From positions 1-59,030 of the forward strand of contig JAUWGS010000012.1 in NCBI GenBank assembly GCA_030606285.1: DNA of 59,030 nt, read 5' to 3'. The number at the start of each line of letters is the position of its first letter. Within the stretch, counting starts at the first letter, position 1. The notes under the pieces are model-generated. The model worked only from the letters and a program-made list of their open reading frames with translations. It searched no databases and had not been told where the DNA came from. Origin of the DNA: Planctomycetales bacterium (GTDB lineage: Bacteria > 4484-113). Positions 23,554 to 56,852 of this stretch are shown piece after piece. Made by a program: the position numbers and the translations under genes.

Positions 23554-24241
23554 CACCCAAATTAAGGAGCATTTCCGCAGGATCACCGCACTGGCTCATG
23601 CCCTGCAGCCTATTACTGAAAAGGTAGTCGTTGTAGGCGCGTCTGCCGTATTGCTACACTGGCTGCACACTCGGAAAGGCCAACCACTGATGTACGTCGA
23701 GGCAAGGCCGACTACTGACATTGATATAGCAGTCCAGTCTCCCGATCTTGCTCGTGAGCTCGTTTCAGAGCACAAGGAGCTTGTTCTACAAGCCCTATGC
23801 CCGCTGTCAGCAGATGACGGCAGACGTGGCGTGGGCTTCCTCCCACACATCAAGTTCGCATTTGAAGACTTCATTACCGTGAGACTGAAAGATGAGCTGA
23901 CGATTAGAGCCGCTGGCGCGGTTGCACTATATGTTCTGAAACTCGAGGCTATTACCAAGCCGTATCGCGCGAAGAAGGATTCAGATATGCGCGACCTGTA
24001 CTTCTTACTTAACCTATACGGAGAAGAGCCGTTAGCTACTATGTGCCTGTCCTTCGCCGGACGCAACGAGGTAATATCATCGCTGCGCAGACTCAAAAAA
24101 CTGCTTGCCCATGAGCTCGCTCCCGGCTACAAGCTGCTATTTGAGGAAATGAACCTCCCGTTCCCAAGCGAAACGTGGGTTATTGCTAGGTTTGACAGGT
24201 TCTTCTACGAGCTGACGCAGGCCGGCTTCAGCCTGGAATAG
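23543..24241 (+). CDS. Putative Pol-beta-type nucleotidyltransferase (AbiEii/AbiGii-like toxin candidate)
   Basis: VVVGASAVLLHW...TTDIDIAV resembles the GS...DxD nucleotidyltransferase motif; overlapping two-gene arrangement; low GC. Confidence 0.4.
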   Translation: MDIDTQIKEHFRRITALAHALQPITEKVVVVGASAVLLHWLHTRKGQPLMYVEARPTTDIDIAVQSPDLARELVSEHKELVLQALCPLSADDGRRGVGFLPHIKFAFEDFITVRLKDELTIRAAGAVALYVLKLEAITKPYRAKKDSDMRDLYFLLNLYGEEPLATMCLSFAGRNEVISSLRRLKKLLAHELAPGYKLLFEEMNLPFPSETWVIARFDRFFYELTQAGFSLE

Positions 24242-30415: not shown

Positions 30416-31819
30416 TTACCCCTTCTTAATCTTGTCTTCCAGCTTACGGATCAACTGCTGCACACCCAATTCAAGCACAGATGCTTTCCCCCCGTCAAGG
30501 AAAGACCGCCTAAGATTCCTGAATTCATCTCCAAGCCTCTTCTGCCTACGCAAACTGTAACAAGGCACCTTCAACTTCCGCAGTTGCGTCTTATTGATGC
30601 TGACAGTTCCAACACCATGTTTCATTGCTTCAATCTGGATTCTCCCAGCGCTAGTATGCATGAATAGATGAAGGAACGCAGCATCATATTGCTTTAGTCT
30701 AATGATGTGCAGGTAGTCGGTGGCAACTCCGATGTCTCTATCACTCAGAATAGGAGCTGTCTTACCAGCGCTGCCCACGCCCACCCGGCAAAAGACAAGG
30801 TCGCCAACGCGTGTCGTCGCACGCTCACTGTCCATCAGCGAACCCGGCTTGATGTACCGAGGATCTTTTAAGTAATCAACCCCTAGGACAGTGAGATTGG
30901 TTGCGTGAAGAAAGCGCTTTCCGCTCTTGCTGAAGCGTCTATCCGCACCGTACAGAGTACGCCCGCTAGTAATGTCACTGGTAATCTCTTCGAGATTCAT
31001 CCACTCGCATTTAAATTCACGGTCAAGAGACGTAGCAGGTTTGGCGGTGACCGGTAATCCTTCCACGAAATCTCCAGATGACAGAATAGTCGTTCTAGCG
31101 CGATTAGGGCTGTCGTATTCAACCAACCTGATCCTATCCCGAACATGTCCTGAAAAAGGGCGCTTACGAAGCACAACCGCCGCTGTTTTCGCTGTTGTGT
31201 AATCAAACGTGTCTCTAGGTAGTCTCAGCACAGTAAGGACTTGACATACATCTGTCATATGACTGCGCACGTACTTGTCACGAAGATTCGTGACCGCGCC
31301 CTCAGGCAGTACGATGCCAATGTACCCACCGGAAGAGCATAGCCTGATAAACCTCTCAAGGAATAGAACTTCGATTGGCTGAGAAGAACGGCCTACTCCT
31401 AAATGGTACTGGTTTAGCACTCTGGGGTCGTTGATACGGTCATACCAAGCGCTGAACGGCGGGTTCCCAACTACAAGGTCGTACTTGAAATCTGCAAGGA
31501 TTCGCCTTGCTTTAGAATCGTGCGACTCGATGTCAAGCGTATCAGCGCAAACGAAGTTGCTCCGCCCGAAACTAGAAGCACAGTGAGCAACCCATCTTTT
31601 GTCAATATCAGCCCCGAATAAGCTTACATGCGGCCACCTTTCACTTACAGCCTTTAGAAAAGTCCCGCTGCCAACAGCCGGGTCAACGGCTCTCTGGAAA
31701 ATGACACTCGGCACTTCATCGAGGATTGCGGAAACGACCCATGTAGGCGTAAAGTACTGATTATGTGGCTGCCTATGCGGCCGTTCTCTGGTGGTTAGCT
31801 TAGCATCCATCTGGACCAA
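30416..31819 (-). CDS. Gamma-class N6-adenine DNA methyltransferase with fused C-terminal target-recognition domain (TaqI-like)
   Basis: Motif order FxGxG (DPAVGSGTF) then NPPF (VVGNPPFSAW) is gamma class; C-terminal roughly 200 aa resembles an HsdS-type TRD; low GC. Confidence 0.7.
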   Translation of the reverse strand: MVQMDAKLTTRERPHRQPHNQYFTPTWVVSAILDEVPSVIFQRAVDPAVGSGTFLKAVSERWPHVSLFGADIDKRWVAHCASSFGRSNFVCADTLDIESHDSKARRILADFKYDLVVGNPPFSAWYDRINDPRVLNQYHLGVGRSSQPIEVLFLERFIRLCSSGGYIGIVLPEGAVTNLRDKYVRSHMTDVCQVLTVLRLPRDTFDYTTAKTAAVVLRKRPFSGHVRDRIRLVEYDSPNRARTTILSSGDFVEGLPVTAKPATSLDREFKCEWMNLEEITSDITSGRTLYGADRRFSKSGKRFLHATNLTVLGVDYLKDPRYIKPGSLMDSERATTRVGDLVFCRVGVGSAGKTAPILSDRDIGVATDYLHIIRLKQYDAAFLHLFMHTSAGRIQIEAMKHGVGTVSINKTQLRKLKVPCYSLRRQKRLGDEFRNLRRSFLDGGKASVLELGVQQLIRKLEDKIKKG

Positions 31820-35118: not shown

Positions 35119-36879
35119 CTAGTTCTCCTTACTACCTTCCTTAAGCCCTAGCTTCTTCCGCACATTCTCAACCAGCGGTGCGAATTCAGGATCGTCCTTG
35201 TAGGGTTCGAAGGCTGCGAAAACTGTATCTGGTTTGTCAACTTTAAAGCTCTCTCCCGATAGCACTTCTTGAACCTGAAGCTCGCTAATAGCTTTTTTCC
35301 GCTTCTTTTGCGCGGCCAGTGTAGCTGCTAGAATGATGTGGGGCCCCGCCTGCGAACGCAGTTTCTCATCGCCATCTAAAGCTCTCCGCAGCGATGCTTC
35401 AGCCTCTTCGAATCGCTTCGCACAGAAGAGCAGTTCCCCTTGACTTGCATAGGCTTCGTAGTAGTCGGGCTTGAGCTTCACCGCTTCCGCACACTTCTCT
35501 AGTGCTTCGTCATACTTGCCCAGCACTCCCAGCGCGATGCCCCAATTGTTGTAGGCTATAGCATACTCGGGCTTGTGCTTCACCGCTTCTGCGTACTTTT
35601 CGCACTCCTCTTTGTACTTGCCCAAGTTCCCCAGCGCTACACCCCAGTTGGAGTAGGCTTGGTGGTCGTCTGGCTTGTGCTTCACCGCTTCGGCATACTT
35701 CTCACATGCTTCCTCGTGCTTGCCAAGCATGGAAAGCGCAGTGCCCCAGTTGTAGTAGGCTTCAGCGTAATCGTGCTTGTGCTTCACTGCTTGTGCAAGC
35801 TTCTCACACGCTTCCTCATACCGGCCCAGCTTCCCTAGCGGCACGGCCCAGTTATTGTAAGCCACCGCATAATCGGGCTTGTGCTTCACCGCTTCTGCGT
35901 ATTTTTCGCACCCCTCTTTGTACTTGCCCAAGTTCCCCAGCGCTACACCCCAGTTGGAGTAGGCTTGGTGGTCGTCTGGCTTGTGCTTCACCGCTTCGGC
36001 ATACTTCTCACATGCTTCCTCGTCGCGGCCTAGCATGGAAAGCGCAGTGCCCCAGCAGAACCATAACCGCTCATCCTCGCTGTTATCAGCTTGGATGCTC
36101 TCCGCAATACTCACTGTGATGGCATGAGCATCCCTATAATGAGCAGTCAGCAAGTCGCGTATTGAGTACTTCCGCGGCTTCGAAAGCTCAGCAGCATATG
36201 CAGGTGCGGTGCTCTCAATCCGCTTTCGCAGGTTTTCTTTCAAGTCCTTAATTTGGGGAAGAACGTCACTCGCCAGAACTCTCCTTAGTAACTCCTCACT
36301 GGCCTTATCGAGAGCTCGCTTCTGCTTTTTCCGCACTCCTGGCGCCAAAGCGGTATACTCGCGGAGGTCGTCAAGCTCCTTCTTAGTCTCTGCGAGCTCC
36401 TTTTCCGTTCGAGTAAGCTGCAAAACAGGGCTCGGTGAATATGGTTTTATAAGAACATCCAGCACAGCATCAGTGCCTTCATCACTGGCCCTGAGAGCTT
36501 CAAGCAAGAGGCGCCATTCTTCGGCTTGCGACAAGTCGTAGTAGTGGTATGCTTTGAATCTCTCAGAAGGCATGTCCGGCCCAAGCTTAACAACTAACGG
36601 TGCTCTATTCTCGTGGCAGGACTGGAAGTCTTCCAACTCCTGAAGGCATCTTGGCCTGTCATCCCAGCTTTTGCTGTATAGGAGTAGGAACTCACGGCAG
36701 CAGTCAACTGCCCCTGAAGTCTCCCTCTCGATATGACCGCTGACCAGGTGAATCGGATCGAACCAGGGAGAGATCCCGGCGAATCTAAGGACGACGTAAA
36801 GCGCCTTCGCTGCCGCACCATGCGTATCTTTGTGATAGCTGATAAAGCAATCGTATTCGCGTTCTTTCTTCTCGTCCAT
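35119..36879 (-). CDS. TIR-domain protein with coiled-coil and multi-TPR array (candidate NADase-type defence effector)
   Basis: Start ATG 36879 (RBS gggagg); N-terminus EYDCFISYHKD...ALYVVLRFAGISPWFD is a TIR fold; at least 9 TPR units (AEAVKHKPDxxxAYxNWGxALGxLGKYxE); DNA-level near-identical 190-bp tandem repeats with 306-bp period. Confidence 0.75.
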   Translation of the reverse strand: MDEKKEREYDCFISYHKDTHGAAAKALYVVLRFAGISPWFDPIHLVSGHIERETSGAVDCCREFLLLYSKSWDDRPRCLQELEDFQSCHENRAPLVVKLGPDMPSERFKAYHYYDLSQAEEWRLLLEALRASDEGTDAVLDVLIKPYSPSPVLQLTRTEKELAETKKELDDLREYTALAPGVRKKQKRALDKASEELLRRVLASDVLPQIKDLKENLRKRIESTAPAYAAELSKPRKYSIRDLLTAHYRDAHAITVSIAESIQADNSEDERLWFCWGTALSMLGRDEEACEKYAEAVKHKPDDHQAYSNWGVALGNLGKYKEGCEKYAEAVKHKPDYAVAYNNWAVPLGKLGRYEEACEKLAQAVKHKHDYAEAYYNWGTALSMLGKHEEACEKYAEAVKHKPDDHQAYSNWGVALGNLGKYKEECEKYAEAVKHKPEYAIAYNNWGIALGVLGKYDEALEKCAEAVKLKPDYYEAYASQGELLFCAKRFEEAEASLRRALDGDEKLRSQAGPHIILAATLAAQKKRKKAISELQVQEVLSGESFKVDKPDTVFAAFEPYKDDPEFAPLVENVRKKLGLKEGSKEN

Positions 36880-36970
36880 GGAGCTGACCTCCCACTGCAA
36901 TTATAGCCCAATAGGTGACAGTTAGGCTTTTGCAGTCTACAAGCCCTTCAATATCCGGTCGAAGTCTAAA

Positions 36971-41142: not shown

Positions 41143-41326
41143 CGGGCGGCGCACCTAAGGTCTCAGCCGATCTCGCCACCGAGGCGCTGAACCTCGCCGC
41201 CTTCTGGTGGCTCTTCCGCCGGGGGAACTGGAAGCGGGTCCGGGTGTGAGATGGGGGGCTTGACAGCCTATACGCCGGTATAGTATAGTTCTAACCGCCT
41301 CGGAGTCTTGCTCCCAGGAGAAACCT

Positions 41327-41740
41327 ATGCCGAATCGCAATACTCATATAGCAGGCGGGCTAATAACTGGAGCGGTGGTATCTTTCTATCTCGCCCGTAA
41401 TGAGGCACCTGACGATATGATGCTCGAAGTGCTTGGTGGTACTGCCATCGCTATATTGGCCTCGTCTCTTCCAGACCGCATTGACCCCCCAACAGGGCCG
41501 TATCATCGAAGTATTGGGCACAGTGCCTTGCTCTCCTCTGTAACGGCTCTAGCCATGGCAACTACTCTTTCTGATTGGCAACGCGCGTGCAGGGAAAGGT
41601 CGGTCGCCGCAAAGGAAGCTGGAGACAAGGTCAGCTGGTTCATCTGGCGTGTACTTGCAGGGATGCCTTGGGGATTTGTAGCAGGCTACTCCTCCCATCT
41701 CATCTTTGATGCTTTTACGGCAAGAGGCTTGCCATCCTAG
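41327..41740 (+). CDS. Membrane-bound metal-dependent hydrolase (DUF457/YdjM-like)
   Basis: 137 aa; MPNRNTHIAGGL..., HRSIGHS..., SHLIFDAFT histidine motifs; low GC. Confidence 0.55.
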   Translation: MPNRNTHIAGGLITGAVVSFYLARNEAPDDMMLEVLGGTAIAILASSLPDRIDPPTGPYHRSIGHSALLSSVTALAMATTLSDWQRACRERSVAAKEAGDKVSWFIWRVLAGMPWGFVAGYSSHLIFDAFTARGLPS

Positions 41741-41790
41741 ATGAAAATCATCTTGGCTGAGTTTCACGTGCGTAGGCTATAATTGAGACG

Positions 41791-42987
41791 ATGGCTGTTC
41801 GCACTGTTGAGCATGTGACCGTTGTCAGCTCCTACAAGAAGCCTCCTGTCAAGGACTTCGCAACAATAACCCCTAAAACACCTCTTGAAGAGCTTAACCT
41901 CAACTGGCGCGAACGAGATTTGCCAGAGAAGGTGAGAACGAAGCATGTGCATCGCCTTCATCCCTATCTGGGGAAGTACATTCCCCAACTCGTTGAAGTG
42001 TTCCTCCGAAAGTACAGGCCCACTCTTGTCTACGACCCCTTCTGCGGGTCGGGAACGACGTTAGTTGAGGCCAACACGCTAGGAATCGACTCTATAGGAT
42101 GCGATGTGTCGCAGTTCAATGTGCTCCTTTCACGGGTCAAGACAGCCAAGTATGATTTGGGCAAATTAAAGAGCGAGATACAGGACATCCTTTTCGAGAC
42201 TTCCAAGCTGCGAAAAGGGACGCTTTTCGGGATTGACACGTTCGACAGACTGGGTCCGGAGAGTGAGTATTTGAAGGAGTGGTATGCGGATCGGTCACGA
42301 AAGGAGCTCTTGTATTACAGGGAACTCATTGCCAACTATCACTATAAGGACTTGATGCGAGTTATACTCTCAAGAGCTGCACGGTCAGCAAGGCTTACCA
42401 CGCACTACGACCTTGACTTTCCTAAGAAACCGCAGACAGAACCTTACTACTGCTACAAACATGGCAGAACATGTAAGCCCGTTGAGGAAGCCTATAAGTT
42501 CCTAGCACGGTATACAGAGGATACATACCGGCGGGTGGCGGAATTTGCAGCAATCCGCACGAAAGCAGATGTAGATGTGCGTTGGACAGACTCCCGTGGA
42601 GTTGACCTACCTAAGGGTATCGACTGCGTGATTACCTCACCGCCATACTTTGGACTCATCGACTATCATGAGCAGCACAAATATGCATACGAGTTGCTTA
42701 ACCTGTCACGCTCGGATGAGGAAGAGATCGGAGCAGCTTCTAACGGACAATCTCAGAAAGCTCGTCAGCAGTATATCGAGGGAATAAACGAAGTGCTAGC
42801 GCACACTCGAAAGCATTTGAAAAGAAATGCCGTTCTGGTGATCGTCATCAATGACAAGTTCGAACTCTACGACCCGAAGCCTCTAGGATATAAATGGGAG
42901 GCCAGAATGCAGCGGCACGTGAATCGACGCACCGGCAGGCGTTCGGGTGCATTCTACGAAGACATCTTCATCTGGAGGAAGCCGTGA
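41791..42987 (+). CDS. DNA methyltransferase (N4-cytosine/N6-adenine family, SPPY motif)
   Basis: Motif I DPFCGSGTTLVEA, motif IV VITSPPYFGLIDY; low-GC islet. Confidence 0.75.
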   Translation: MAVRTVEHVTVVSSYKKPPVKDFATITPKTPLEELNLNWRERDLPEKVRTKHVHRLHPYLGKYIPQLVEVFLRKYRPTLVYDPFCGSGTTLVEANTLGIDSIGCDVSQFNVLLSRVKTAKYDLGKLKSEIQDILFETSKLRKGTLFGIDTFDRLGPESEYLKEWYADRSRKELLYYRELIANYHYKDLMRVILSRAARSARLTTHYDLDFPKKPQTEPYYCYKHGRTCKPVEEAYKFLARYTEDTYRRVAEFAAIRTKADVDVRWTDSRGVDLPKGIDCVITSPPYFGLIDYHEQHKYAYELLNLSRSDEEEIGAASNGQSQKARQQYIEGINEVLAHTRKHLKRNAVLVIVINDKFELYDPKPLGYKWEARMQRHVNRRTGRRSGAFYEDIFIWRKP

Positions 42988-43799
42988 TTGATACTAAGAC
43001 ACGCGCGAAAATCAAGGGTTATGTGGAGGGCTTTCTTCAGCACACAGTGGAACAGATACTCTCAAGGCAACGTGATAGGCAAGCTAAATTGCAGACCGGA
43101 AGGAAAGATACATCACCGGCTCACAAGCCTTTTCATCGTGCACTACTTCCGGAAGGAATCAGACGCATAAGCGAGTTCGAGAGGTCTTTTTCAACAGCGC
43201 TCGGAAGCACTTTTGAAGAGGCAGGGAAGCTTATTGCGGCTGCCACACACCAAACGGCCATAAGGGGACACAAAATATCCGGACGAGTGTCTGCTAAAGC
43301 CATCGGCCTGATTGAGGCAATCGTTGAATCCAATAAGCAGAACGGTTCGACGAAACCGTATCTTGAGTTCGTCCGACAAGTAGTGGATGCCGCCGCCGAG
43401 GATGGAGGTGAAATACGACCCGTGACCTCCGACCTATACGTGAAAACCCATTCTGGGGAGGAGTGGTATTTCGAGATAAAGTCACCAATGCCTAACAAGG
43501 GGCAGTGCCTTGAGGCTACATCGCGGCTCCTTCACATATGCGCCATCAGACATGAGCAATATCCGAAGCTACGAACGCATTTCGCGATGGGCTATAACCC
43601 TTACGGTGAGGATAAATCTGATTACAAATGGAGCTTTGCGGTGAGACATATGGATATGAAAAATCAAGTAGTTATTGGCCGGGAGTTTTGGGATTTATTA
43701 GGCGGTGAAGACACATACGACGATCTCCTATCAATCTATAACGAGGTAGGACGTGAGAAAGCTAAGTACTTACTTGATAAGTTGATGCTGAACTACTGA
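42983..43799 (+). CDS. Hypothetical protein, candidate Type II restriction endonuclease
   Basis: GTG start overlapping the MTase TGA (ccGTGAtt) with RBS ggagga; 272 aa; no motif recognised with certainty. Confidence 0.4.
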
Positions 43800-43802
43800 G
43801 CG

Positions 43803-44132
43803 CTACTCCAGCAAAGCCACCAGTGCGTCGAAAGCCTCGGTGAATTCATCATATAACTCTCGGTAAGTCCCGTCCTTGGAGCGCAGCGAGAAGAACGCGC
43901 CACCGCCGCCATTGCAATCATACTCAGAGTTAGTGTGCTTGAGTTGCCTACTGCGCCTGTCCAGTTTCAACCACTGCGTCTCCACTACACCCCCAACAAT
44001 CAAGCGAAGTTGGTGTTTACCGTCTGAAATCCGCTCCCAGATGCCATCCCGCTTGAGAATTCGTATGGCCTCTTCAGGCGTCAACTCGACCTCATCCAAG
44101 TCGATTTCATTCAGATTATTTGTCGTTGCCAT
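43803..44132 (-). CDS. Hypothetical protein
   Basis: 109 aa; convergent with the REase candidate. Confidence 0.35.
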   Translation of the reverse strand: MATTNNLNEIDLDEVELTPEEAIRILKRDGIWERISDGKHQLRLIVGGVVETQWLKLDRRSRQLKHTNSEYDCNGGGGAFFSLRSKDGTYRELYDEFTEAFDALVALLE

Positions 44133-44169
44133 GTTGCGGACCCTACCAGATTCAGGTCCGAATTCAAGG

Positions 44170-44215
44170 GTATTAGCAGGGCAATTCGTGAATTGCCCCT
44201 ACAAAGAAGGGCGAG
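44170..44215. repeat. Hairpin-CTACAR unit (exact copy of the 487-513 unit)
   Basis: gggcaattcgtgaattgcccctacaa is identical to the unit at 487-513. Confidence 0.5.
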
Positions 44216-46496: not shown

Positions 46497-47558
46497 CTAT
46501 AAATTGAAGCGCACGAGGATTACTTCGCCGTCCTGCACCGGATAGTCCTTGCCCTCGGTGCGCAGCTTGCCCGCGGACTTCGCGGCGTCGGTAGACCCAA
46601 GCTCCACCAGATCCTGTGCGGCGATGACTTCCGCGCGGATAAACCCGCGCGCCAGGTCGGTGTGTATCGCCCCCGCAGCCTCAACCGCCGTTGATCCGGT
46701 CGGCACGCTCCAGGCGCGCAGTTCCTTCACATTGAAAGTGAAGAACACAATCCGGTCCATCGCCGCAAGCAGCGCCTTCTTCAGCGGCGGCACCAGCGCG
46801 CCTTCAATGCCGTAAAGCTCGCGGAACGCCGCACGTTCTTCTTCCGGTAGCTCCGCAAGCTCCGCCACCAGCGCGATGGGCAGAGGATAACAGCGAGACG
46901 CGCTAACGCTATCGCCGAGTTGGGCGCACACGCTGTCGCGAAAGCCCTTGTCGGCGTACTGCTCCTCGGTGAGGTTGACAACCACCAGCTCTGGCTTTAG
47001 CGTGAGCAGCGCGAGGTCTTTAAGCTCGTTTTTCTCCTCAGGTGACAGCTCGGCGTGCAGCGACGCCCCACCCTCCAGCAATTCAACCACGCGCGCCAGC
47101 AGCTTGTAGCGCGGATCGTCGGATGGGCGCTTGGCGACCCGCAGCTTCGTCTTAAGGTTGGAAAAGGCGCTGTCGGCGTTGGCGTAATCCAGCAGCACCA
47201 GCTCTTCGCGGAAGCTCTTGTAGTCCGCTGCGAGCTGCTGCGCTTCGGCGTTAGCCTGCAGTACAACGACCAGCAGGTCCGACTGACGGATTTCGCGGAG
47301 GATGCGGTTCACGAGCTTGGTGGGCGTGCTGCTGCCGAACCCGGGGAAGTCGTACAGCTCGACCGTGAGCGGAACGACCTTGCGTCCGCTGAGGATGCCT
47401 GCAAGCGCGGCAAGGCGCGCGTCCTCCAGCTCCACTGGCGCGACCGGCGGACTGAAGGATTCGGTCAGCATCGTTTCGCGGGGCTGCTCGCCCGAAAGCA
47501 GCGTGAACAGCCGGCTCTTGCCGGTTCCTTCCGGCCCAATTAGGCTAATCCGCAGCAT
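46497..47558 (-). CDS. YchF/Obg-family ribosome-binding ATPase-like protein with C-terminal TGS domain (divergent G1 motif)
   Basis: C-terminus GAIHTDLARGFIRAEVI...EGKDYPVQDGEVILVRFN matches the YchF TGS domain; N-terminal LIGPEGTGKS P-loop. Confidence 0.55.
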   Translation of the reverse strand: MLRISLIGPEGTGKSRLFTLLSGEQPRETMLTESFSPPVAPVELEDARLAALAGILSGRKVVPLTVELYDFPGFGSSTPTKLVNRILREIRQSDLLVVVLQANAEAQQLAADYKSFREELVLLDYANADSAFSNLKTKLRVAKRPSDDPRYKLLARVVELLEGGASLHAELSPEEKNELKDLALLTLKPELVVVNLTEEQYADKGFRDSVCAQLGDSVSASRCYPLPIALVAELAELPEEERAAFRELYGIEGALVPPLKKALLAAMDRIVFFTFNVKELRAWSVPTGSTAVEAAGAIHTDLARGFIRAEVIAAQDLVELGSTDAAKSAGKLRTEGKDYPVQDGEVILVRFNL

Positions 47559-47671: not shown

Positions 47672-47747
47672 TCGGGGCGTGGCTCAGTCCGGTTAGAGCG
47701 CAGCGTTCGGGTCGCTGAGGTCGCGAGTTCGAATCTCGCCGCCCCGA
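47672..47747 (+). tRNA. tRNA-Pro (anticodon CGG)
   Basis: Cloverleaf read by hand: acceptor cggggcg/cgccccg, D-arm gctc..gagc, anticodon stem cagcg/cgctg with loop ttCGGgt, T-arm gcgag-ttcgaat-ctcgc, discriminator A, CCA not encoded. Confidence 0.85.
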
Positions 47748-47751
47748 TTGT
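47717..47751 (+). repeat. Direct repeat copy 1 (3' 35 nt of the tRNA-Pro, attL-like)
   Basis: gaggtcgcgagttcgaatctcgccgccccgattgt. Confidence 0.7.
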
Positions 47752-47854
47752 ATTTCGTTGCCCGTGGCAGCAGCGAGCCACCGGGATTGCGGGCGACTTT
47801 GCGAAGTGGATGATCTGATTTTAGAACGTAAGGGCTGATGGAGGGTCGGAACTG

Positions 47855-48055
47855 ATGGCGCGATTTACTCTTGAATACTGGAAGGATGAAGGCTGGTATG
47901 TCGGGCGGCTTAAACAAGTGCCTGGCATCTTCAGCCAGGGCGAGTCGCTCGAAGAGCTCGAAGAAAACATCCGCGAAGCCTACGCGCTGATGAGAGAAAC
48001 CGAAGCCGCGCCCGACCTCGACGTGCAGCCCGAAGAGGTTGAGATTGAAGTGTGA
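47855..48055 (+). CDS. hicB: HicB-family antitoxin
   Basis: 66 aa; YVGRLKQVPGIFSQGESLEELEENIREAYALM matches HicB; RBS ggaggg. Confidence 0.75.
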   Translation: MARFTLEYWKDEGWYVGRLKQVPGIFSQGESLEELEENIREAYALMRETEAAPDLDVQPEEVEIEV

Positions 48056-48231
48056 AGCGGCGCGAGCTAATACGGGAGCTTACGCGCGCGGGATGCTACC
48101 TGCTGCGCCGGGGTAGGAAGCACGACATCTACATCAATCCGCGCACCGGAAGGAAAGCGCCGGTGCCCCGGCACAACGAAATACCCGACAGCATGCGCCG
48201 GATGGTTCGCACGCAGCTTGGGCTGAAGTAG
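48052..48231 (+). CDS. hicA: HicA-family mRNA-interferase toxin (not in the ORF track; GTG start)
   Basis: Hand translation VKRRELIRELTRAGCYLLRRGRKHDIYINPRTGRKAPVPRHNEIPDSMRRMVRTQLGLK* fits the HicA consensus (ELI..L...G..L.R..GSH.I..NP..G....VPRH.E); GTG overlaps the hicB stop (gtGTGa). Confidence 0.75.
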   Translation: MKRRELIRELTRAGCYLLRRGRKHDIYINPRTGRKAPVPRHNEIPDSMRRMVRTQLGLK

Positions 48232-48265
48232 AGGTCGCGAGTTCGAATCTCGCCGCCCCGATTGT
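48231..48265 (+). repeat. Direct repeat copy 2 (duplicated tRNA-Pro 3' end, attR-like)
   Basis: Identical 35 nt gaggtcgcgagttcgaatctcgccgccccgattgt. Confidence 0.7.
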
Positions 48266-48271
48266 TTTTTG

Positions 48272-48730
48272 CATCACATCAAGATGTGGAGCCATCCTGG
48301 TAGTCCAGGGCTTCAGCCCTGGTCTTTTCATCCGACGAGCCAGCCCTAAAGGCTTGCCCGCCTGGGCGGGGCTGGACTACCGGATTCTCTTTCGTAGGGG
48401 CACGGCACGCCGTGCCCGCCAACGTGGATAAGGATGCAAAAGGGCATAGCATGCTATGCCCCTACAATCAACAACGACACTTTAGAGACGGACGCGCAGT
48501 CTCCAGGCTGCGCGATTGAAGGCATATAAGGAGTGGCGGCCCGCCGGCGCCTGTGGCGTGGCGGGTAAACCTGGAGATTTACACGCCTGGGCGTGCCGCC
48601 ACTCCAGGTTTAATCAGAGAAGACGGCGGTCATACCCTCCGACGCTTGCGCTATAGCGGGCAAGAATGACCGCCCTACAGCGTCCCTTCTTGCTGACGCT
48701 TGCCCGCCATAGCTTTAGCGGCGGCGGGAC
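48272..48730. repeat. Large cluster of the 85-bp TIR element and hairpin-CTACAR repeat units
   Basis: ggtagtccagggcttcagccctgg...ggctggactaccgg (85-bp TIR element homologous to 2560-2640); gggcacggcacgccgtgccc; gggcatagcatgctatgcccctacaa; gtggcgggtaaacctggag; gaccgccctacagcg. Confidence 0.5.
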
Positions 48731-49240: not shown

Positions 49241-50062
49241 CTAGGCAGGCTCCAGGACGTTATCAACGCGAGATTCGAACTCACCAGCCGAGAGGCCCGT
49301 TGATCCCCGCTTCAAGTGCAGAAAGAACTCCTTGTTGCCTTTGGCGCCGGCAGGCTGAGCGAGAATGACCTGCTTCACCGCAAAGCCATCCGCCTCGAGC
49401 TGCGAGTATGCCCTCATCAGCACTCGCTTGTGCAGCGTAGGATGGTGCACGACGCCGCCGGTGAACCACCTGCGGCGCTCGTCTTCCGCGTCCGGCTCGC
49501 GCTCAAACTGCGGCTTGAGCAGCAAAAGCCCGTCGGCGCGCTCCCCTAGTAGCGGCGCGATAGCGCTGCAAAGCCCCACGCCGGAGATGAACGAGACATC
49601 AACGGTGAATAGGCCGCACGGATCGGGCACGTGCCCGGCGCTCAAGTTGCGCGCGTTCACTCCTTCTAGCAGCACAATGCGCTCATCGCCTCGCAGCCTA
49701 CCGTCCAGCAGGCCCGTTCCCACATCCACCGCGTAGACCTTCGCAGCGCCCTGCTCCAGCAGCACTTCGGTGAAGCCGCCGGTGGAGCTACCGACATCCA
49801 GGCAGATTGCGCCCTTCACCATCGGGCTGGCCTCGCCCAGAGCGTCCAGGCAGTTCTTCAGCTTCAAGCCACCGCGCGATACATAGGGGCATTCGGGCTC
49901 GACCAGCTCTACTTCTGCGGTATCCGGCACCGCCGTTCCCGGGCCGGTCACAGGCCTGCCGTCCACCAGCACGCGCCCCTGCATAATCAGCGAGCGCGCA
50001 ATGCGCTCATCTTCGACCAGTTTACGGGAAAGTACCAAGTCCAGCAGGCGCCGGCGCGTCAC
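49241..50062 (-). CDS. tlyA: TlyA-family rRNA (cytidine-2'-O)-methyltransferase
   Basis: N-terminal S4-like RLDLVL...GRVLVDG, FtsJ-like VSRGGLKL...CLDVGSSTGGFTEVLLEQGAAKVYAVDVG. Confidence 0.8.
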   Translation of the reverse strand: MTRRRLLDLVLSRKLVEDERIARSLIMQGRVLVDGRPVTGPGTAVPDTAEVELVEPECPYVSRGGLKLKNCLDALGEASPMVKGAICLDVGSSTGGFTEVLLEQGAAKVYAVDVGTGLLDGRLRGDERIVLLEGVNARNLSAGHVPDPCGLFTVDVSFISGVGLCSAIAPLLGERADGLLLLKPQFEREPDAEDERRRWFTGGVVHHPTLHKRVLMRAYSQLEADGFAVKQVILAQPAGAKGNKEFFLHLKRGSTGLSAGEFESRVDNVLEPA

Positions 50063-53220: not shown

Positions 53221-54609
53221 CTAAGAGCCCTTAACCGGACGGATGCCCAGGATCATCTCCTCAATCTCAGCTCGCGTCTTATGTTGAAGACGATTGACTG
53301 TTTCGCGTTCTTTAGCGATCTCCGCACGCCCTACCTCGACTCGCTCCACGATGGCCTGCTGAACATCAAGCGGCGGAAGGGGAAGGCGCAGGCTGCGAAT
53401 TTCCTGGCTGTTGATGTTGTTCTGCATGATTAGCCGACTTAAAGAATCCACCTGCTGCCGCCCCACAGGCGAATTGACGTACGATGCGACGAAGTCCGAA
53501 TCCGCTCTTTCTAGAGAGGGACGCAAGCGGATGAGATAGGAGGCGAAAACGAAGTTTCCTTGTTCATGAAAGACCGCGCATGTGCCCACCAAGTCACGGC
53601 TTCCGCTTGTGCGGATGATGAGAATATCCCCGTCGTGCAAGCGCAACCTGTTTAGCGACATCTTTCCTAGCGGGATATGCTTCAAATCTGTAGTATCAAT
53701 CCTCCCGTCCTTGATGTTGTTTATCCGAAGAGCCGGCGTCCCTTTCCCGTCGGCGTTGGCCTTTTCGCTGGTGCCGTATTGGACCGTTTCGAGAATAGAG
53801 CTAAGACCCGTTACAGGATAATTGCCGCGTGAAAGGTCAATCATGGAGGCCGCGGATTGGCCATAGCTGACACTCCAACGTTCGAAATCCTCCCAATGGA
53901 CGGCGAGGGCTTTCGGCGGGGCGGCCCGTTTGGGAAGAGTAAGACCGAGGTCAGCGAGGAATTGGGCGGCGGTTTCGCGCTCGATGCGGGTGATGCGTTC
54001 GTTGGCCTTCGCTGTGGCATCTTGCGCCTTGCGCCATCGCGACACAATCGCGCTTTGAACCTGCAACGGAGGAAGAGGGATTTCGATTTGCTCGATCTGG
54101 GCTGGCTTAACCCGCTTTCGACCGCTCGCACCGCTAATCATGCTATTGATTGCGTCACGGAAGAAGCTAGTTCGAAACACTAGCTTGACATACTCAGGCA
54201 TTGCTTTTTCAGGTTTGACGCGATAAATAGGATATTCGCTGCTTACGACTATAGTGCCCATTTCCTCCGGCACAACACTTATCGCGCCGTTGCGAACGTC
54301 TATCTTAGAATAAATTACATCGCCAGGATGAGCGAAGAATAGACGCCCCTTGAAGTTGTTCTGACCCCGCATGTTGCGCAGTTCCATCTCTCCATCAAAA
54401 TGAAGCGTGATAAGGTTAAGGGACGCGAAATTGTGTTTCATTCGGTCAACGATTTCAACCCGCTTGTCCAGCGCATCTCCAAGAGGTTGGATGAAGGCCT
54501 TAGGCCACTGCCAGTCAATATCAAAGAAGCTGCGGACACTCCATCGCGCCAACTCCCTAAACCAAGTGGCGAAAGCCCTGATGCGTTTGCTGTTGTCTTG
54601 GGATTTCAT
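53221..54609 (-). CDS. hsdS: Restriction-modification specificity subunit (HsdS-like, two target-recognition domains)
   Basis: 462 aa; duplicated TRD plus conserved coiled-coil spacers (LPPLQVQSAIVSRW, LPLPPLDVQQAIVERV). Confidence 0.85.
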   Translation of the reverse strand: MKSQDNSKRIRAFATWFRELARWSVRSFFDIDWQWPKAFIQPLGDALDKRVEIVDRMKHNFASLNLITLHFDGEMELRNMRGQNNFKGRLFFAHPGDVIYSKIDVRNGAISVVPEEMGTIVVSSEYPIYRVKPEKAMPEYVKLVFRTSFFRDAINSMISGASGRKRVKPAQIEQIEIPLPPLQVQSAIVSRWRKAQDATAKANERITRIERETAAQFLADLGLTLPKRAAPPKALAVHWEDFERWSVSYGQSAASMIDLSRGNYPVTGLSSILETVQYGTSEKANADGKGTPALRINNIKDGRIDTTDLKHIPLGKMSLNRLRLHDGDILIIRTSGSRDLVGTCAVFHEQGNFVFASYLIRLRPSLERADSDFVASYVNSPVGRQQVDSLSRLIMQNNINSQEIRSLRLPLPPLDVQQAIVERVEVGRAEIAKERETVNRLQHKTRAEIEEMILGIRPVKGS

Positions 54610-56852
54610 ATGAAATAACCTTCAGGATTCCGCCGGTATTCGCGGTAGTGCTCTAGCGCGGTCATGCCGATGTCCCCGGGAGTACGGTCGTTGGGGTATA
54701 GCTCGTTTAGGTCATCCTCACCGGTAGCGGTGATGCCGACCTTTTCGGCCTCGTAGAGAAAGACAGGATAGTCGAAACGCTCCTTAAGCAGCGCGCGAGC
54801 CTCAGCATTGATATTCATTTCCGCTGCCTTCTTGTAACCGCGCAGTTCCTTTTGGGCAGTCTTGCGGCGTTCGGCGTCGCGGGCCTTCTTCGCCTCCGCG
54901 ATTTCAGTTTCAAGGCGTTCGGTTTCAGCGGAGACTTCGGGAACGTACTTAGCTTCTATCTCGCGCTGGGCGCGTTCCTTCTCGTCATTGTATCGGGCTT
55001 GTTCCTCTTCAGTGAACTTCTGCATGAATAGAAGTGACGCCTTGACTGACGTACCGGAGGAATAGAATGTCTCTTGCGGAAGACTGATTACGGCGCGGAT
55101 GTAGGCGCGGTCTTCACAGAAGGAACGGACGCGAATCAGTGAGGGATTGTTGAGAACGCCCTCAGGCAGGACAATGCCAAGCCTCCCGCCAGGCTTTAGA
55201 AGAGCTAGGCAACGCTCGATAAAGAGAATTTCGGTTTTAACCTTGCTCTTTCCCGACCTAGGCAGCTCGAAAAGCGAAGCTATGGGTTTACCCGTGGCGG
55301 CTTGAACGCGAGCCTGCGCGTCCTTGTACGTTTCGCCGAATTCGCGGATATATCGGCGGGAGTCTTCGTTGGAGACAGCAACATCGCTGTCTAGGATTAT
55401 GTCCGACGGCTCGACATTCGCGCCAAAGGGAGGATTCGTTAGAACGATGTCGAAGCGCTCCTCAAAGATACCATTGACGTTGATAAATCCATCATGGTGA
55501 TGTACTCCGCCGTGACCGTCGCCGTGCATGATCATGTTCATCTTGCTGGTGCGGGCCATGCGCTCATTGGCGTCAGTGCCAAAGATGCAGCGGTTAGCCA
55601 ATGTCCAGACGCGGGAACCTTCACGGGTGGAGTCGAGCGTAACCTGCAGTTCATCGAATCTCGCGCGGAGCATTTCAGCTTTCTTCTTCTTGCTGTATTT
55701 CTTTTTGTCGAGTTTGGCTTTAAACTCCTGGTATTGCCTGTCAGCGTCGGCGAGTATTTGTTCTCGGACTAGCTCGAAAAACCGGATAAGAAAGCCGCCA
55801 GAGCCGCTGGCCGGGTCGCAGATAATGTCTCCTTCCTTTGGCTCCATCATGCGGATCATGAATTCGACGATGGTGCGTGGAGTGAAGAACTGGCCTATTT
55901 CGCCCCGGAAGGTACGGCCCAGGAAGCGCTCGAAGGCGATACCCTTTATATCCTCGCTGGTGTCGGAGAGGTTGTATCGCTCAAGTAGGCGCACAATCTC
56001 GCGACCGGTAGCGGTCTTAAGGTTGATGCGTTCGCGGTCCTCAAATATGCGGTCTGCTTTATAGAATTTCTTGGTTTCCTGAAAAAGCTGGTCGAGGGGA
56101 TTATCGCCGAGTAGTGAATCAAGATATTCGGCGGTGAAAAGGTTTTGGCGCTGATGCTTACTGCTCAGTTCGCGCTCAACCCAAACCTTGACAAATAGCA
56201 CTTTGGCAATTTCGTCAAATGCCGCTGCCGGGTCCTTTTTCTCGCGGTTGCGGATAACATTGTGGCATTGATGCAAAAGCTGGGCGAATTCCTCTTCCTT
56301 GAAAACCTTCAAACGGGCTATGAGTTCCTTAATCTCCTTATCGCTAGCTTCAGCATAGGGGATGTTCTCGATTTCCTCAATGTAGCCTGGCATCCGGTCT
56401 TTCTTAACACGCCAGAACTTCGTTTCGCGCGTGTTGTGTGTGACAAAGAAGGGAGCGTTTGTGAGGCGAGCATAATTGTCACCTTGCGCGTAATCCTGCG
56501 GTTGGATGGTCACGTTGTCGGACTTGCACTCGACGATAATCAGGGGCGATTTGCCATCGCTCTTGTCCTGTGCAGTGCGCCAGACGACGAAATCGGCGCG
56601 TGCTTGACCGCTGCCGCGCCCGGTGAGTTCCTCTTCCTCCGCGATCTGCTCGGGCTGGAAGCCGTACTCTGAAACAAGGTGAATAAGGTATTCTTGCCGC
56701 ACGCGCTCTTCGGGCGTCTCGACCAGCCACTTCTGGCGAATGTGGCTCCAGACCTTACCGTCTTTACGACGGACGGCGATTTCCGAGCTTGCCCCTGAGG
56801 CCGTCTTATTCATCTTTCCCTCCTCGGGTTTCCCTCTGCGCAATTGTAGCAC
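54606..56852 (-). CDS. N6-adenine DNA methylase (HsdM-like, gamma class) fused to an N-terminal HsdR_N-type PD-(D/E)xK nuclease module; start possibly ATG 56813
   Basis: Motif I CDPASGSGGFL, motif IV VLTNPPFG; N-terminal ARADFVVW...PLIIVECKSDN (D...ExK); 4-nt overlap with hsdS. Confidence 0.8.
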   Translation of the reverse strand: MLQLRRGKPEEGKMNKTASGASSEIAVRRKDGKVWSHIRQKWLVETPEERVRQEYLIHLVSEYGFQPEQIAEEEELTGRGSGQARADFVVWRTAQDKSDGKSPLIIVECKSDNVTIQPQDYAQGDNYARLTNAPFFVTHNTRETKFWRVKKDRMPGYIEEIENIPYAEASDKEIKELIARLKVFKEEEFAQLLHQCHNVIRNREKKDPAAAFDEIAKVLFVKVWVERELSSKHQRQNLFTAEYLDSLLGDNPLDQLFQETKKFYKADRIFEDRERINLKTATGREIVRLLERYNLSDTSEDIKGIAFERFLGRTFRGEIGQFFTPRTIVEFMIRMMEPKEGDIICDPASGSGGFLIRFFELVREQILADADRQYQEFKAKLDKKKYSKKKKAEMLRARFDELQVTLDSTREGSRVWTLANRCIFGTDANERMARTSKMNMIMHGDGHGGVHHHDGFINVNGIFEERFDIVLTNPPFGANVEPSDIILDSDVAVSNEDSRRYIREFGETYKDAQARVQAATGKPIASLFELPRSGKSKVKTEILFIERCLALLKPGGRLGIVLPEGVLNNPSLIRVRSFCEDRAYIRAVISLPQETFYSSGTSVKASLLFMQKFTEEEQARYNDEKERAQREIEAKYVPEVSAETERLETEIAEAKKARDAERRKTAQKELRGYKKAAEMNINAEARALLKERFDYPVFLYEAEKVGITATGEDDLNELYPNDRTPGDIGMTALEHYREYRRNPEGYFI

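What the first reader, a model, noticed from the sequence alone, without database searches (positions are those of the whole stretch)
47672..48265. hicB-hicA module sits between tRNA-Pro(CGG) and a 35-bp duplicate of its 3' end
The 35 nt gaggtcgcgagttcgaatctcgccgccccgattgt occur at 47717-47751 (inside and just past the tRNA) and again at 48231-48265. Duplication of a tRNA 3' end is the classic scar of site-specific integration (attL/attR). Between the copies lie only about 480 bp, holding a complete hicB-hicA pair and no integrase. This looks like either the smallest remnant of a decayed integrative element whose toxin-antitoxin cargo was kept, or a toxin-antitoxin cassette that itself targets the tRNA 3' end.
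Basis: partly seen in the sequence, partly recalled or inferred. Interest (0 to 1): 0.65.

Follow-up and report, generated by a model that had tools for sequence, protein, structure and literature searches.

The report
Mini toxin-antitoxin cassette at tRNA-Pro
A 0.5-kb hicB-hicA toxin-antitoxin module sits between a proline tRNA gene and an exact copy of that gene's 3' end. Related genomes carry none, one or two such cassettes at the same tRNA, so it is a minimal insertion with no recombinase gene of its own, not a chance repeat.

Summary
tRNA-Pro(CGG) lies at 47673-47747. The exact 35-mer occurs at 47717-47751 and 48231-48265, with none expected by chance. Between the copies lie only a promoter-like stretch, hicB (47855-48055) and hicA (48052-48231). 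The hicA stop codon overlaps the first base of copy 2.

Comparison with relatives supports an insertion at the tRNA 3' end. Five related metagenomic lineages keep the ychF/tRNA-Pro(CGG) pair.
- Two are empty: L083 and L175-L179.
- One has the same left junction as the window: L169.
- One has two unrelated hicBA cassettes in tandem, each ending in a partial tRNA copy directly after the toxin stop codon: L170.
- One has a decayed version of that array: L164.

A further copy (L163) sits away from any tRNA and still carries the tRNA-like tail. The right half of each tail follows the resident tRNA variant. Between clades the cassette genes are less diverged than ychF.

No recombinase was found in 48 window ORFs, and none appears in the precomputed gene tables of the related loci.

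Best reading: an att-flanked cassette without its own integrase, like a cis-mobilizable element (CIME), in a tRNA-anchored tandem array and kept by toxin-antitoxin addiction. It is a new variant of a known kind. Interest is moderate.

The parts
46497..47558 (-). ychF-like GTPase gene, the conserved left neighbour of the tRNA. It was used as the anchor to find the orthologous locus in relatives.
   Evidence: Matches PF06071 YchF-GTPase_C at 109 bits. Orthologues with 94, 88, 84, 69 and 69% identity lie next to tRNA-Pro(CGG) in L169, L170, L083, L164 and L175.
47673..47747 (+). tRNA-Pro(CGG), intact. This is the insertion target.
   Evidence: ARAGORN. Rfam RF00005, 65.1 bits, full-length match to the model.
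47717..47751 (+). Repeat copy 1 (attL-like). It holds the last 31 nt of the tRNA plus TTGT.
   Evidence: Exact 35-mer. Collinearity with the empty relative L083 ends at 47752.
47752..47854 (+). Left end of the cassette. It holds a promoter-like pair, TTGCGA (47799-47804) and TAGAAC (47822-47827) separated by 17 nt, and a GGAGGG ribosome-binding site (47840-47845).
   Evidence: The stretch is shared with L169, and its start resembles the stretch after L170 copy 2. TTTGC...TTAGAA and GGAGGG are conserved in the window, L164 and L163. The strict consensus scan did not call a promoter here, so the promoter is inferred.
47855..48055 (+). hicB-like antitoxin, 66 aa. It has only the N-terminal UPF0150/HicB fold and no DNA-binding domain.
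   Evidence: Its stop overlaps the hicA start by 4 nt.
48052..48231 (+). hicA toxin, 59 aa, GTG start. It keeps a His in the G-x-K-H motif.
   Evidence: PF07927 at 40.3 bits, above the cut-off of 27. Homologues with 90% identity occur in L163 and L164.
48231..48272 (+). Repeat copy 2 (attR-like tail). Its 35 nt are identical to copy 1. All 42 nt (GAGGTC...GATTGTTTTTTGC) are identical to the tRNA end plus flank of L169.
   Evidence: The homologous tail follows the hicA stop in L164, L163 and L170.
48305..48332 (+). Terminator-like hairpin (CCAGGGCTTCAGCCCTGG) followed by a T-rich run. It is the probable end of the hicBA transcript and lies outside the cassette.
   Evidence: Part of it is a dispersed repeat that also occurs at 2559-2582.

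Best explanation
The 514-bp unit is a minimal integrated cassette without its own integrase. It consists of a promoter-like stretch, hicB, hicA and a tail copied from the tRNA 3' part. It sits at the 3' end of tRNA-Pro(CGG) and is bounded by attL/attR-like copies of the tRNA end. That is what the literature calls a cis-mobilizable element (CIME).

It belongs to a tRNA-anchored tandem array that varies between related genomes from zero to two cassettes.

Proposed history and mechanism:
1. Elements carrying a copy of the tRNA-Pro 3' part recombined site-specifically with the tRNA gene. This regenerated the tRNA and pushed a partial copy to the far side. The duplications and the empty sites are shown. 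The recombinase is inferred and must be encoded elsewhere or lost.
2. Successive events stacked cassettes. The stacking itself is seen in L170 and L164. That the newest cassette lies next to the tRNA is inferred.
3. Recombination between the tRNA and the tails removes cassettes precisely. The window and L169 lack cassette 1, and L083 and L175 lack everything. Such recombination also keeps the tail like the resident tRNA. This step is inferred from the comparisons.
4. The array, or single cassettes, moved between diverged hosts. The likely route is a ride with a helper integrative element (accretion and cis-mobilization) or a helper integrase acting in trans. This step is supported by divergence data but is not shown directly.
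5. HicA is an mRNA-cleaving toxin and HicB its antitoxin. They make loss of the cassette costly, which would explain why the toxin-antitoxin pair is the only cargo that persists. This follows from established toxin-antitoxin biology and was not tested here.
For: Repeat and tRNA: an exact 35-nt duplication of the tRNA 3' end.

Two independent occupied/empty pairs, each with a shared right flank:
- L170 carries about 1010 bp of cassettes where L083 has 63 nt.
- L164 carries about 820 bp where L175 has 94 nt.

Cassette structure in relatives:
- L170 reads tRNA, hicB', hicA', pseudo-tRNA (D arm to 3' end), hicB, truncated hicA, third tRNA 3' copy.
- The two cassette types are unrelated by BLASTP, yet both toxins match PF07927.
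- In both types the tRNA copy follows the toxin stop codon directly.
- The conserved unit runs from about 20-60 nt upstream of hicB to the end of the tail in the window, L164 and L163. L170 cassette 2 matches as well apart from its deleted hicA.
- L163 has the cassette and tail with no tRNA within 20 kb.
- More distant hicBA homologues (66-69% identity) have no tail, so the tail is not an intrinsic feature of the gene family.

Tail pattern:
- The right 20 nt match the host tRNA variant while the left 11 nt do not. L170 copy 3 has 0/20 against 6/11 mismatches (p=0.0006). L164 has 2/20 against 5/11.
- The T-loop base is G in the window and A in L170 and L164, in both tRNA and tail.

Divergence between clades (L170 against L164):
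- Cassette genes: dS 0.46 (CI 0.30-0.73), dN 0.062.
- ychF: dS 1.16 (CI 0.91-1.59), dN 0.218.

Literature:
- CIME definition and tandem accretion (PMC5704250).
- Partial tRNAs between neighbouring elements as a sign of successive integrations (10.1101/2020.12.28.424599).
Against: - No integrase, excisionase or transfer gene was found in 48 window ORFs, and none appears in the precomputed Pfam gene tables of L163, L164 and L170. Those tables leave several genes without a hit or not looked up. The recombinase is therefore purely inferred.
- No circular form or reconstituted attP was observed.
- In the window itself the right flank (48273 onward, towards tlyA) has no counterpart next to the tRNA in any relative. 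A clean empty site for this exact genome is missing, and an extra rearrangement must be assumed.
- The 60-nt spacers next to the tRNA in L083 and L170 do not align.
- The divergence contrast rests on one host gene and 125-138 cassette codons. For the window-L164 pair the confidence intervals overlap.
- The same cassette order in both clades also fits one old insertion followed by losses.
Confidence: 0.55

Rival explanations
1. Immobile fossil. One ancient integrative element inserted at tRNA-Pro(CGG) in the common ancestor and lost everything except its toxin-antitoxin modules. The present pattern reflects only vertical descent, plus deletions by homologous recombination or slippage between the direct repeats. 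Gene conversion from the tRNA keeps the tails similar.
For: - No recombinase was found anywhere near the cassettes.
- Cassette 1 and cassette 2 lie in the same order in L170 and L164.
- Within the window's clade, cassette divergence fits vertical descent: window-L170 dS 0.36 for the cassette against 0.49 for ychF.
- Decay is visible. L170 has a 109-nt frameshifting deletion in hicA. L164 has lost hicA' and its tail. The tails of L164 and L163 are degenerate.
Against: - Between clades the cassette genes are much less diverged than ychF: dS 0.46 against 1.16 with non-overlapping intervals, dN 0.06 against 0.22.
- L163 carries the cassette and tail at a locus without a tRNA.
- The model needs at least three independent precise losses.
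- Two unrelated hicBA modules both ending exactly at a tRNA copy is an unlikely result of random deletion.
Confidence: 0.2
2. Spread without an integrase, by homologous recombination. The tRNA is nearly identical across these lineages. A donor fragment of the form tRNA-cassette-tail could insert into an empty recipient by one crossover in the 5' part of the tRNA and a second between the tail and the recipient's tRNA 3' end. Loss would occur by the reverse recombination between the repeats.
For: - The first 50 nt of the tRNA are identical between L170 and L164.
- The tails are chimeric. The left part resembles the other cassette tails (GCGAG even where the host has GGGAG) and the right part matches the resident tRNA. 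This model predicts that pattern.
- No recombinase was found.
Against: - The homology available on the right is only 20-35 nt, which is poor for RecA-dependent exchange.
- The model does not explain how the first tail arose.
- It does not explain the copy in L163, where no tRNA is present.
Confidence: 0.12
3. The tail is a functional RNA element of the hicBA transcript, such as a T-arm hairpin acting as terminator, stabiliser or processing signal, and not a recombination scar.
For: - The tail follows the toxin stop codon directly in every copy.
- It travels with the cassette to a locus without a tRNA.
- In the window it is followed by a T run.
Against: - The T-stem pairing is broken in L164 (GCGAG/CTCCC) and L163 (GCGAG/CTCTC). 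No common fold is predicted and z-scores are about 0.
- The terminator scan places the hairpin downstream, at 48305-48322, not in the tail.
- More distant hicBA homologues have no such tail.
- The idea does not explain the empty sites or why the tail follows the host tRNA variant.
Confidence: 0.04
4. Chance repeat or assembly artefact.
For: The short-read assembly of the same genome (Logan SRR14876847) breaks inside the repeat.
Against: - No 35-mer repeat appeared in 100 shuffles.
- The same architecture occurs in independent assemblies from different sources, namely L164, L169 and the three identical loci L170, L171 and L172.
- A contig break at a 35-nt repeat is expected if the assembler's k-mer is about 31 nt (assumed, not checked).
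Confidence: 0.01

Closest known systems
Cis-mobilizable elements (CIMEs) and tandem accretion at att sites. Examples are the ICESt1-related elements of Streptococcus thermophilus and other streptococcal islands, as defined in Guedon et al. 2017 (PMC5704250).
   Same: - It is bounded by attL- and attR-like repeats derived from the 3' end of the target gene.
- It has no integration or transfer genes.
- Cassettes lie in tandem, separated by internal att copies.
- Presence and absence vary among relatives.
   Different: - It is extremely small, about 0.45-0.55 kb per unit, with one toxin-antitoxin operon as the only content.
- The toxin stop codon abuts the att copy.
- No helper element was seen.
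- Descent from an ICE or IME, and cis-mobilization, are not shown.
- The host is an uncultured lineage with no close GTDB representative (best YchF match 37%).
tRNA-targeting integrative elements that leave partial tRNA copies. Examples are genomic islands, P4-like prophages and the tycheposons of Prochlorococcus (10.1101/2020.12.28.424599).
   Same: - The element is flanked by a full tRNA and a partial tRNA copy.
- Neighbouring elements are separated only by a partial tRNA, explained there as successive integrations that push older elements outward.
- Scattered partial tRNAs mark old events.
   Different: Those elements carry a tyrosine or serine recombinase and kilobases of cargo. This one has neither.
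Toxin-antitoxin cassettes of chromosomal integrons (Vibrio superintegrons). This comparison rests on my own knowledge and was not checked in a paper here.
   Same: - The units are compact, with one operon and a recombination site directly after the ORF.
- They are stacked in tandem.
- The toxin-antitoxin modules are thought to stabilise the array.
   Different: - There is no IntI integrase, attI site or Pc promoter nearby.
- The boundary sequence is a tRNA 3' fragment, not an attC imperfect palindrome.
- Each cassette has its own promoter-like region.
The HicAB type II toxin-antitoxin family (HicA is PF07927, HicB is UPF0150/HicB-like).
   Same: - HicA scores above the Pfam cut-off and keeps the His of the G-x-x-H motif.
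- HicB has the N-terminal UPF0150-like fold by profile match.
- The two genes overlap by 4 nt.
   Different: - The order is antitoxin first, whereas E. coli hicAB has the toxin first (from my own knowledge).
- HicB has only 66 aa and lacks the C-terminal DNA-binding domain present in the solved HicB structures (6g1n has 142 aa).

Membership tests
HicA toxin (PF07927) | The sequence matches the family model above the curated cut-off. | tested here: met
   40.3 bits against a cut-off of 27, covering profile positions 2-58 of 58.
HicA toxin (PF07927) | RNase activity and growth arrest that HicB neutralises. | not testable with these tools
   Needs expression assays. From the sequence alone, a His is kept in the RGRKHD motif.
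HicB antitoxin (UPF0150 / HicB-like) | The N-terminal HicB/UPF0150 fold, encoded next to hicA. | tested here: inconclusive
   The window protein is below the Pfam cut-offs (24.9 against 27.3, and 20.2 against 27). Its L170 orthologue scores 27.4. A profile of six orthologues hits TTHA0281 at 3e-5 and HicB 6g1n/6g1c at about 0.015. The 4-nt overlap with hicA supports the pairing.
Insertion at a tRNA 3' end by site-specific recombination (attL/attR) | The inserted DNA is flanked by direct repeats made of the tRNA 3' part. | tested here: met
   35/35 nt identical, 0 expected by chance. Homologous tails occur in L164, L163 and L170.
Insertion at a tRNA 3' end by site-specific recombination (attL/attR) | Related genomes have an unoccupied site with the same flanks. 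| tested here: met
   L083 against L170 and L175 against L164 share both flanks. For the window itself only the left flank is shared with the empty relative.
Insertion at a tRNA 3' end by site-specific recombination (attL/attR) | An integrase gene lies in the element or beside it. | tested here: not met
   No recombinase domain in 48 window ORFs. None appears in the precomputed gene tables of L163, L164 and L170.
Insertion at a tRNA 3' end by site-specific recombination (attL/attR) | Excision produces a circular form and a restored attB. | not testable with these tools
   Needs raw reads or PCR across the junctions.
Cis-mobilizable element (CIME) | It keeps attL and attR but lacks integration and transfer genes. 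| tested here: met
   The definition is taken from PMC5704250.
Cis-mobilizable element (CIME) | It derives from an ICE or IME by deletion. | not testable with these tools
   No related element that carries an integrase was found. Plasmid, phage and viral collections gave no match.
Cis-mobilizable element (CIME) | It is mobilised together with a helper element integrated in tandem. | tested here: inconclusive
   The evidence is indirect only. Cassette genes are less diverged than ychF between clades, and the same two-cassette array sits at the same tRNA in diverged hosts.
Integron gene cassette | An attC imperfect palindrome lies at the 3' end of the cassette. | tested here: not met
   The tail is a tRNA fragment. 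No conserved hairpin is predicted across the three tails.
Integron gene cassette | An IntI integrase with attI lies next to the array. | tested here: not met
   No recombinase was found in the window or in the related loci.

The most novel reading that the evidence does not exclude
Minimal toxin-antitoxin cassettes, each with its own promoter, a hicBA operon and a tRNA-3'-end recombination site, may be a distinct class of mobile element without a recombinase of its own. An integrase encoded elsewhere, or a passing integrative element, would capture them in tandem at tRNA-Pro(CGG) and release them again. This would work like an integron that uses a tRNA gene as its attI site and tRNA fragments as attC sites, with the toxin-antitoxin modules as selfish hitchhikers on tRNA-targeting integrases.
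Probability: 0.15. Interest if true: 0.75.

Novelty: new variant of a known kind. Interest (0 to 1): 0.45.

Why it matters
Integrative elements usually carry their own integrase, and the remnants described so far that lack one (CIMEs) are larger decayed islands. Here each unit holds one toxin-antitoxin operon and about 20-70 nt of tRNA-derived sequence. Even so, the units stack in tandem, differ between close relatives and appear to have crossed between diverged hosts.

If that is right, it shows three things:
- how small a mobilisable or persistent element can be;
- a concrete case of toxin-antitoxin modules outliving the element that brought them, and perhaps exploiting tRNA att sites;
- a simple system of one tRNA, two or three repeats and 0.5 kb in which integrase-dependent and homology-dependent cassette gain and loss could be compared.

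If it proves to be only a fossil, it is an ordinary island scar with a tidy comparative record.

Tried and rejected
- **Exact-protein look-ups.** HicA and HicB of the window are not on record. YchF and TlyA of the window occur only in fragmented Logan contigs of the same genome, one of which breaks inside the repeat.
- **Viral collection.** Scans for the att core and for HicA found nothing relevant. A 25-nt core pattern hit two contigs, but both carry tRNA-Pro(GGG) sequence. The end of L182 has no Pfam-recognisable integrase.
- **Plasmid and phage collections.** No match to the cassette.
- **Tail as terminator or structured RNA.** Rejected. No fold is conserved, the stem is broken in relatives, and the terminator-like hairpin lies downstream.
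- **Transposon with a target-site duplication.** Rejected. The repeats are 20-70 nt long and tRNA-derived, there are no terminal inverted repeats and there is no transposase.
- **Integron.** Rejected on attC and IntI (see the membership test).
- **tmRNA.** The weak Rfam tmRNA hit at 48236-48253 (14.4 bits against a cut-off of 47) is just the T-arm-like part of the tail.
- **Possible left att copy in L163.** The sequence CGCCCCGTGATT lies upstream of the promoter-like region. It is too short to rely on.
- **NCBIfam.** It gave no name for any of the four toxin-antitoxin proteins.
Full report
**1. The observation**

The window holds one tRNA gene, tRNA-Pro(CGG). ARAGORN places it at 47672-47748 and Rfam at 47673-47747 with 65.1 bits.

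The 35-mer GAGGTCGCGAGTTCGAATCTCGCCGCCCCGATTGT occurs at 47717-47751 and 48231-48265 and nowhere else, even with three mismatches allowed. None of 100 shuffles produced a match. Read against the tRNA, the repeat covers the last base of the anticodon stem, the variable loop, the whole T arm, the 3' acceptor strand, the discriminator A and four bases beyond.

Two overlapping ORFs lie between the copies.
- The 59-aa product (48052-48231, GTG start) is a HicA toxin, PF07927 at 40.3 bits against a cut-off of 27.
- The 66-aa product (47855-48055) is just below the UPF0150 and HicB-like cut-offs. Its orthologue in L170 passes for UPF0150. A profile of six orthologues hits TTHA0281 at 3e-5 and HicB structures at about 0.015. 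It has only the N-terminal antitoxin fold.
- The hicA stop codon TAG (48229-48231) shares its last base with the repeat.

**2. Surroundings**

The left neighbour is a ychF-like GTPase gene (46497-47558, minus strand). To the right lie a hairpin-rich non-coding stretch, a small putative lipoprotein gene, tlyA, a DUF212 gene and a subtilase gene. I ran 48 ORFs covering the window against Pfam and none has a recombinase domain. GC content does not mark the cassette.

**3. Relatives**

The species-representative genome collection has no close relative; the best YchF match is 37% identical. Metagenome and protein-database searches with YchF recovered five related lineages that keep ychF next to tRNA-Pro(CGG). 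By YchF identity and dS they group as ((window, L169), L170), L083, with L164 and L175 much deeper.

| Lineage | YchF identity to window | State at the tRNA 3' end |
|---|---|---|
| L169 | 94% | Same left junction as the window; the contig ends at the hicB start |
| L170 (identical to L171 and L172) | 88% | Two cassettes in tandem, described below |
| L083 | 84% | tRNA only |
| L164 | 69% | tRNA, hicB' alone, hicB-hicA, degenerate tail |
| L175-L179 | 69% | tRNA directly followed by the gene that flanks the L164 array |

L170 reads as follows:
- the tRNA;
- cassette 1, with a 73-aa HicB-like protein and an 80-aa HicA (PF07927, 43.7 bits), ending in stop codon TAG;
- a pseudo-tRNA that runs from the D arm to the 3' end;
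- cassette 2, which is the window's type, but with a 109-nt frameshifting deletion in hicA;
- a third copy of the tRNA 3' end.

The empty sites are well anchored.
- L083 is collinear with the window up to 47752. It is collinear with L170 on both sides of a roughly 1010-bp insertion.
- In L175-L179, about 820 bp are inserted in L164 relative to L175.

Finally, L163 carries cassette 2 and its tail (86% nt identity to the window over 47839-48270) downstream of ribF, with no tRNA within 20 kb.

**4. What the comparison shows**

(a) The conserved unit runs from about 20-60 nt upstream of hicB to the end of the tRNA-like tail. It includes a conserved TTTGC...TTAGAA promoter-like pair and a GGAGGG ribosome-binding site.

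(b) Two hicBA modules with no BLASTP similarity have the same layout, and in both the toxin stop codon is followed at once by a tRNA copy.

(c) More distant hicBA homologues (66-69% identity) have no such tail. The tail therefore records insertion at this tRNA and is not a family feature.

(d) The tails are chimeric.
- The 20 nt from the T loop to the discriminator match the resident tRNA, including host-specific variants: CTCCC in L164, CTCGC in L170 and the window, and T-loop base G in the window against A elsewhere.
- The 11 nt to the left are diverged. L170 copy 3 has 6/11 mismatches on the left against 0/20 on the right (p=0.0006). L164 has 5/11 against 2/20.
- All cassette-2 tails have GCGAG or GCGGG in the 5' T-stem strand, even where the host tRNA has GGGAG.
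- This pattern is what recombination with a crossover near the T loop would produce. Repeated exchange with the tRNA would produce it too.
- In the window the identity reaches further left, up to the stop codon. That codon is TAG here and TAA in the other copies, which suggests a recent exchange with the tRNA gene.

(e) Between clades the cassette genes are less diverged than ychF. For L170 against L164, cassette dS is 0.46 (0.30-0.73) against 1.16 (0.91-1.59) for ychF, and dN is 0.062 against 0.218. Within the window's clade the values fit vertical descent.

(f) The window and L169 have the state expected if cassette 1 was removed by recombination between the tRNA and the internal copy. Their tRNA is followed by TTGTTTTTTGCT..., which is the sequence that follows copy 2 in L170.

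**5. Mechanism**

The simplest account is a tRNA-anchored array of att-flanked cassettes that carry no integrase.
1. The cassettes were inserted by site-specific recombination at the tRNA 3' end.
2. They were stacked by successive events.
3. They are trimmed by recombination between the tRNA-derived repeats.
4. They were carried at least once between diverged hosts.
5. They persist because HicA/HicB addiction penalises loss.

The duplications, the arrays, the empty sites, the chimeric tails and the divergence contrast are shown. The recombinase, the transfer route and the addiction effect are inferred.

The literature describes the general class.
- CIMEs keep attL and attR but have lost their integration and transfer genes, and they accrete in tandem with incoming elements (PMC5704250).
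- Neighbouring elements separated by partial tRNAs are read as successive integrations at one tRNA (10.1101/2020.12.28.424599).

**6. Rivals**

- **Purely vertical fossil with repeated deletions.** It fits the absence of any recombinase and the visible decay. It fits poorly with the divergence contrast, the copy away from a tRNA, and two unrelated modules ending exactly at a tRNA copy.
- **Gain by homologous recombination through the conserved tRNA sequence.** It would also give chimeric tails. It has only 20-35 nt of homology on one side, and it does not explain the first tail or L163.
- **A functional RNA role for the tail.** It is not supported. The stem is broken in relatives, no common fold is predicted, and a terminator-like hairpin lies downstream at 48305-48322.
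- **Artefact.** Excluded by the independent assemblies.

**7. Caveats**

- The window's own right flank is not found next to the tRNA in any relative. A further rearrangement at this hot spot must be assumed, and no exact empty-site allele of this genome was seen.
- All relatives are metagenomic contigs.
- The divergence test uses one host gene.

**8. Verdict**

It is a minimal, CIME-like toxin-antitoxin cassette and one unit of a variable tandem array at tRNA-Pro(CGG). That makes it a new variant of a known kind, of moderate interest. The more novel reading, an integron-like capture system for toxin-antitoxin mini-cassettes that uses a tRNA gene, is not excluded; I give it about 0.15.

Noticed in passing
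window 41261-44203: A low-GC stretch (about 50% against about 63% elsewhere) carries a type II restriction-modification pair: an N6/N4 methylase at 41791-42987 and a TdeIII-type endonuclease at 42894-43799. The relative L083 has only about 900 bp of unrelated sequence between the same flanks. This is a separate small island.
   Followed up: partly
window 53221-56852: A type I restriction-modification specificity gene (53221-54609) and a fused HsdR-N/N6-methylase gene (54606-56852) lie in a region of lower GC, about 52%.
   Followed up: no
window 22330-24241, 30416-31819, 35119-36900: Other defence-like genes are scattered among housekeeping genes: an AbiEii/DUF6036-like nucleotidyltransferase pair, an Eco57I-type N6 methylase and a TIR-TPR protein. 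All have low GC3.
   Followed up: no
window 48290-48610, with copies at 2274-2294, 2559-2582 and 2845-2870; also L163 10418-10473, 10579-10602 and 11333-11358; L164 22-143: The non-coding stretch right of the tail is full of short palindromic units. These recur elsewhere in the window and in related contigs and look like REP-type dispersed repeats of this lineage.
   Followed up: partly
window 49268-49282 (minus strand, inside the 3' end of tlyA): An exact 15-nt inverted match to the T-arm part of the repeat (GAGTTCGAATCTCGC) encodes EFESR in TlyA. It is probably chance, but it lies only 1 kb from the tail.
   Followed up: no
L163 9280-9700: About 400 nt of GC-rich non-coding sequence lie between ribF and the cassette. 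The stretch has a TTGACA-17-TATCCT promoter-like site and a long closing helix in the centroid fold (CTGGCCCCGT with ACGGGGCCAG). It has no Rfam match even at E<=10, and its folding energy is no better than that of shuffles. It may be an undescribed RNA gene, or nothing.
   Followed up: partly
L163 10557-10743 and 11311-11497: Two blocks of 19-nt tandem repeats (GATTTAYCCGCCTRTGG) flank a separate HicB-like gene (11060-11272, minus strand). Single inverted copies of the same motif occur in the window at about 48556-48595.
   Followed up: no
L170 8965-8891; L164 1561-1779: The toxin genes decay first. In L170 the cassette-2 hicA has a 109-nt frameshifting deletion next to a GGATG that occurs twice in intact hicA. 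In L164 cassette 1 keeps only the antitoxin gene. Both leave orphan antitoxins.
   Followed up: yes
window 47712, 47724, 47731 and 47738, compared with the tRNA-Pro of L083, L164 and L175: The tRNA varies among relatives. The T stem is GCGAG/CTCGC in the window, L169 and L170 but GGGAG/CTCCC in L083, L164 and L175. The first three all carry cassette 2. L083 and L175 are empty. L164 also carries cassette 2 yet has GGGAG/CTCCC. An integrating element could have imported the compensatory pair, but this is speculative.
   Followed up: partly
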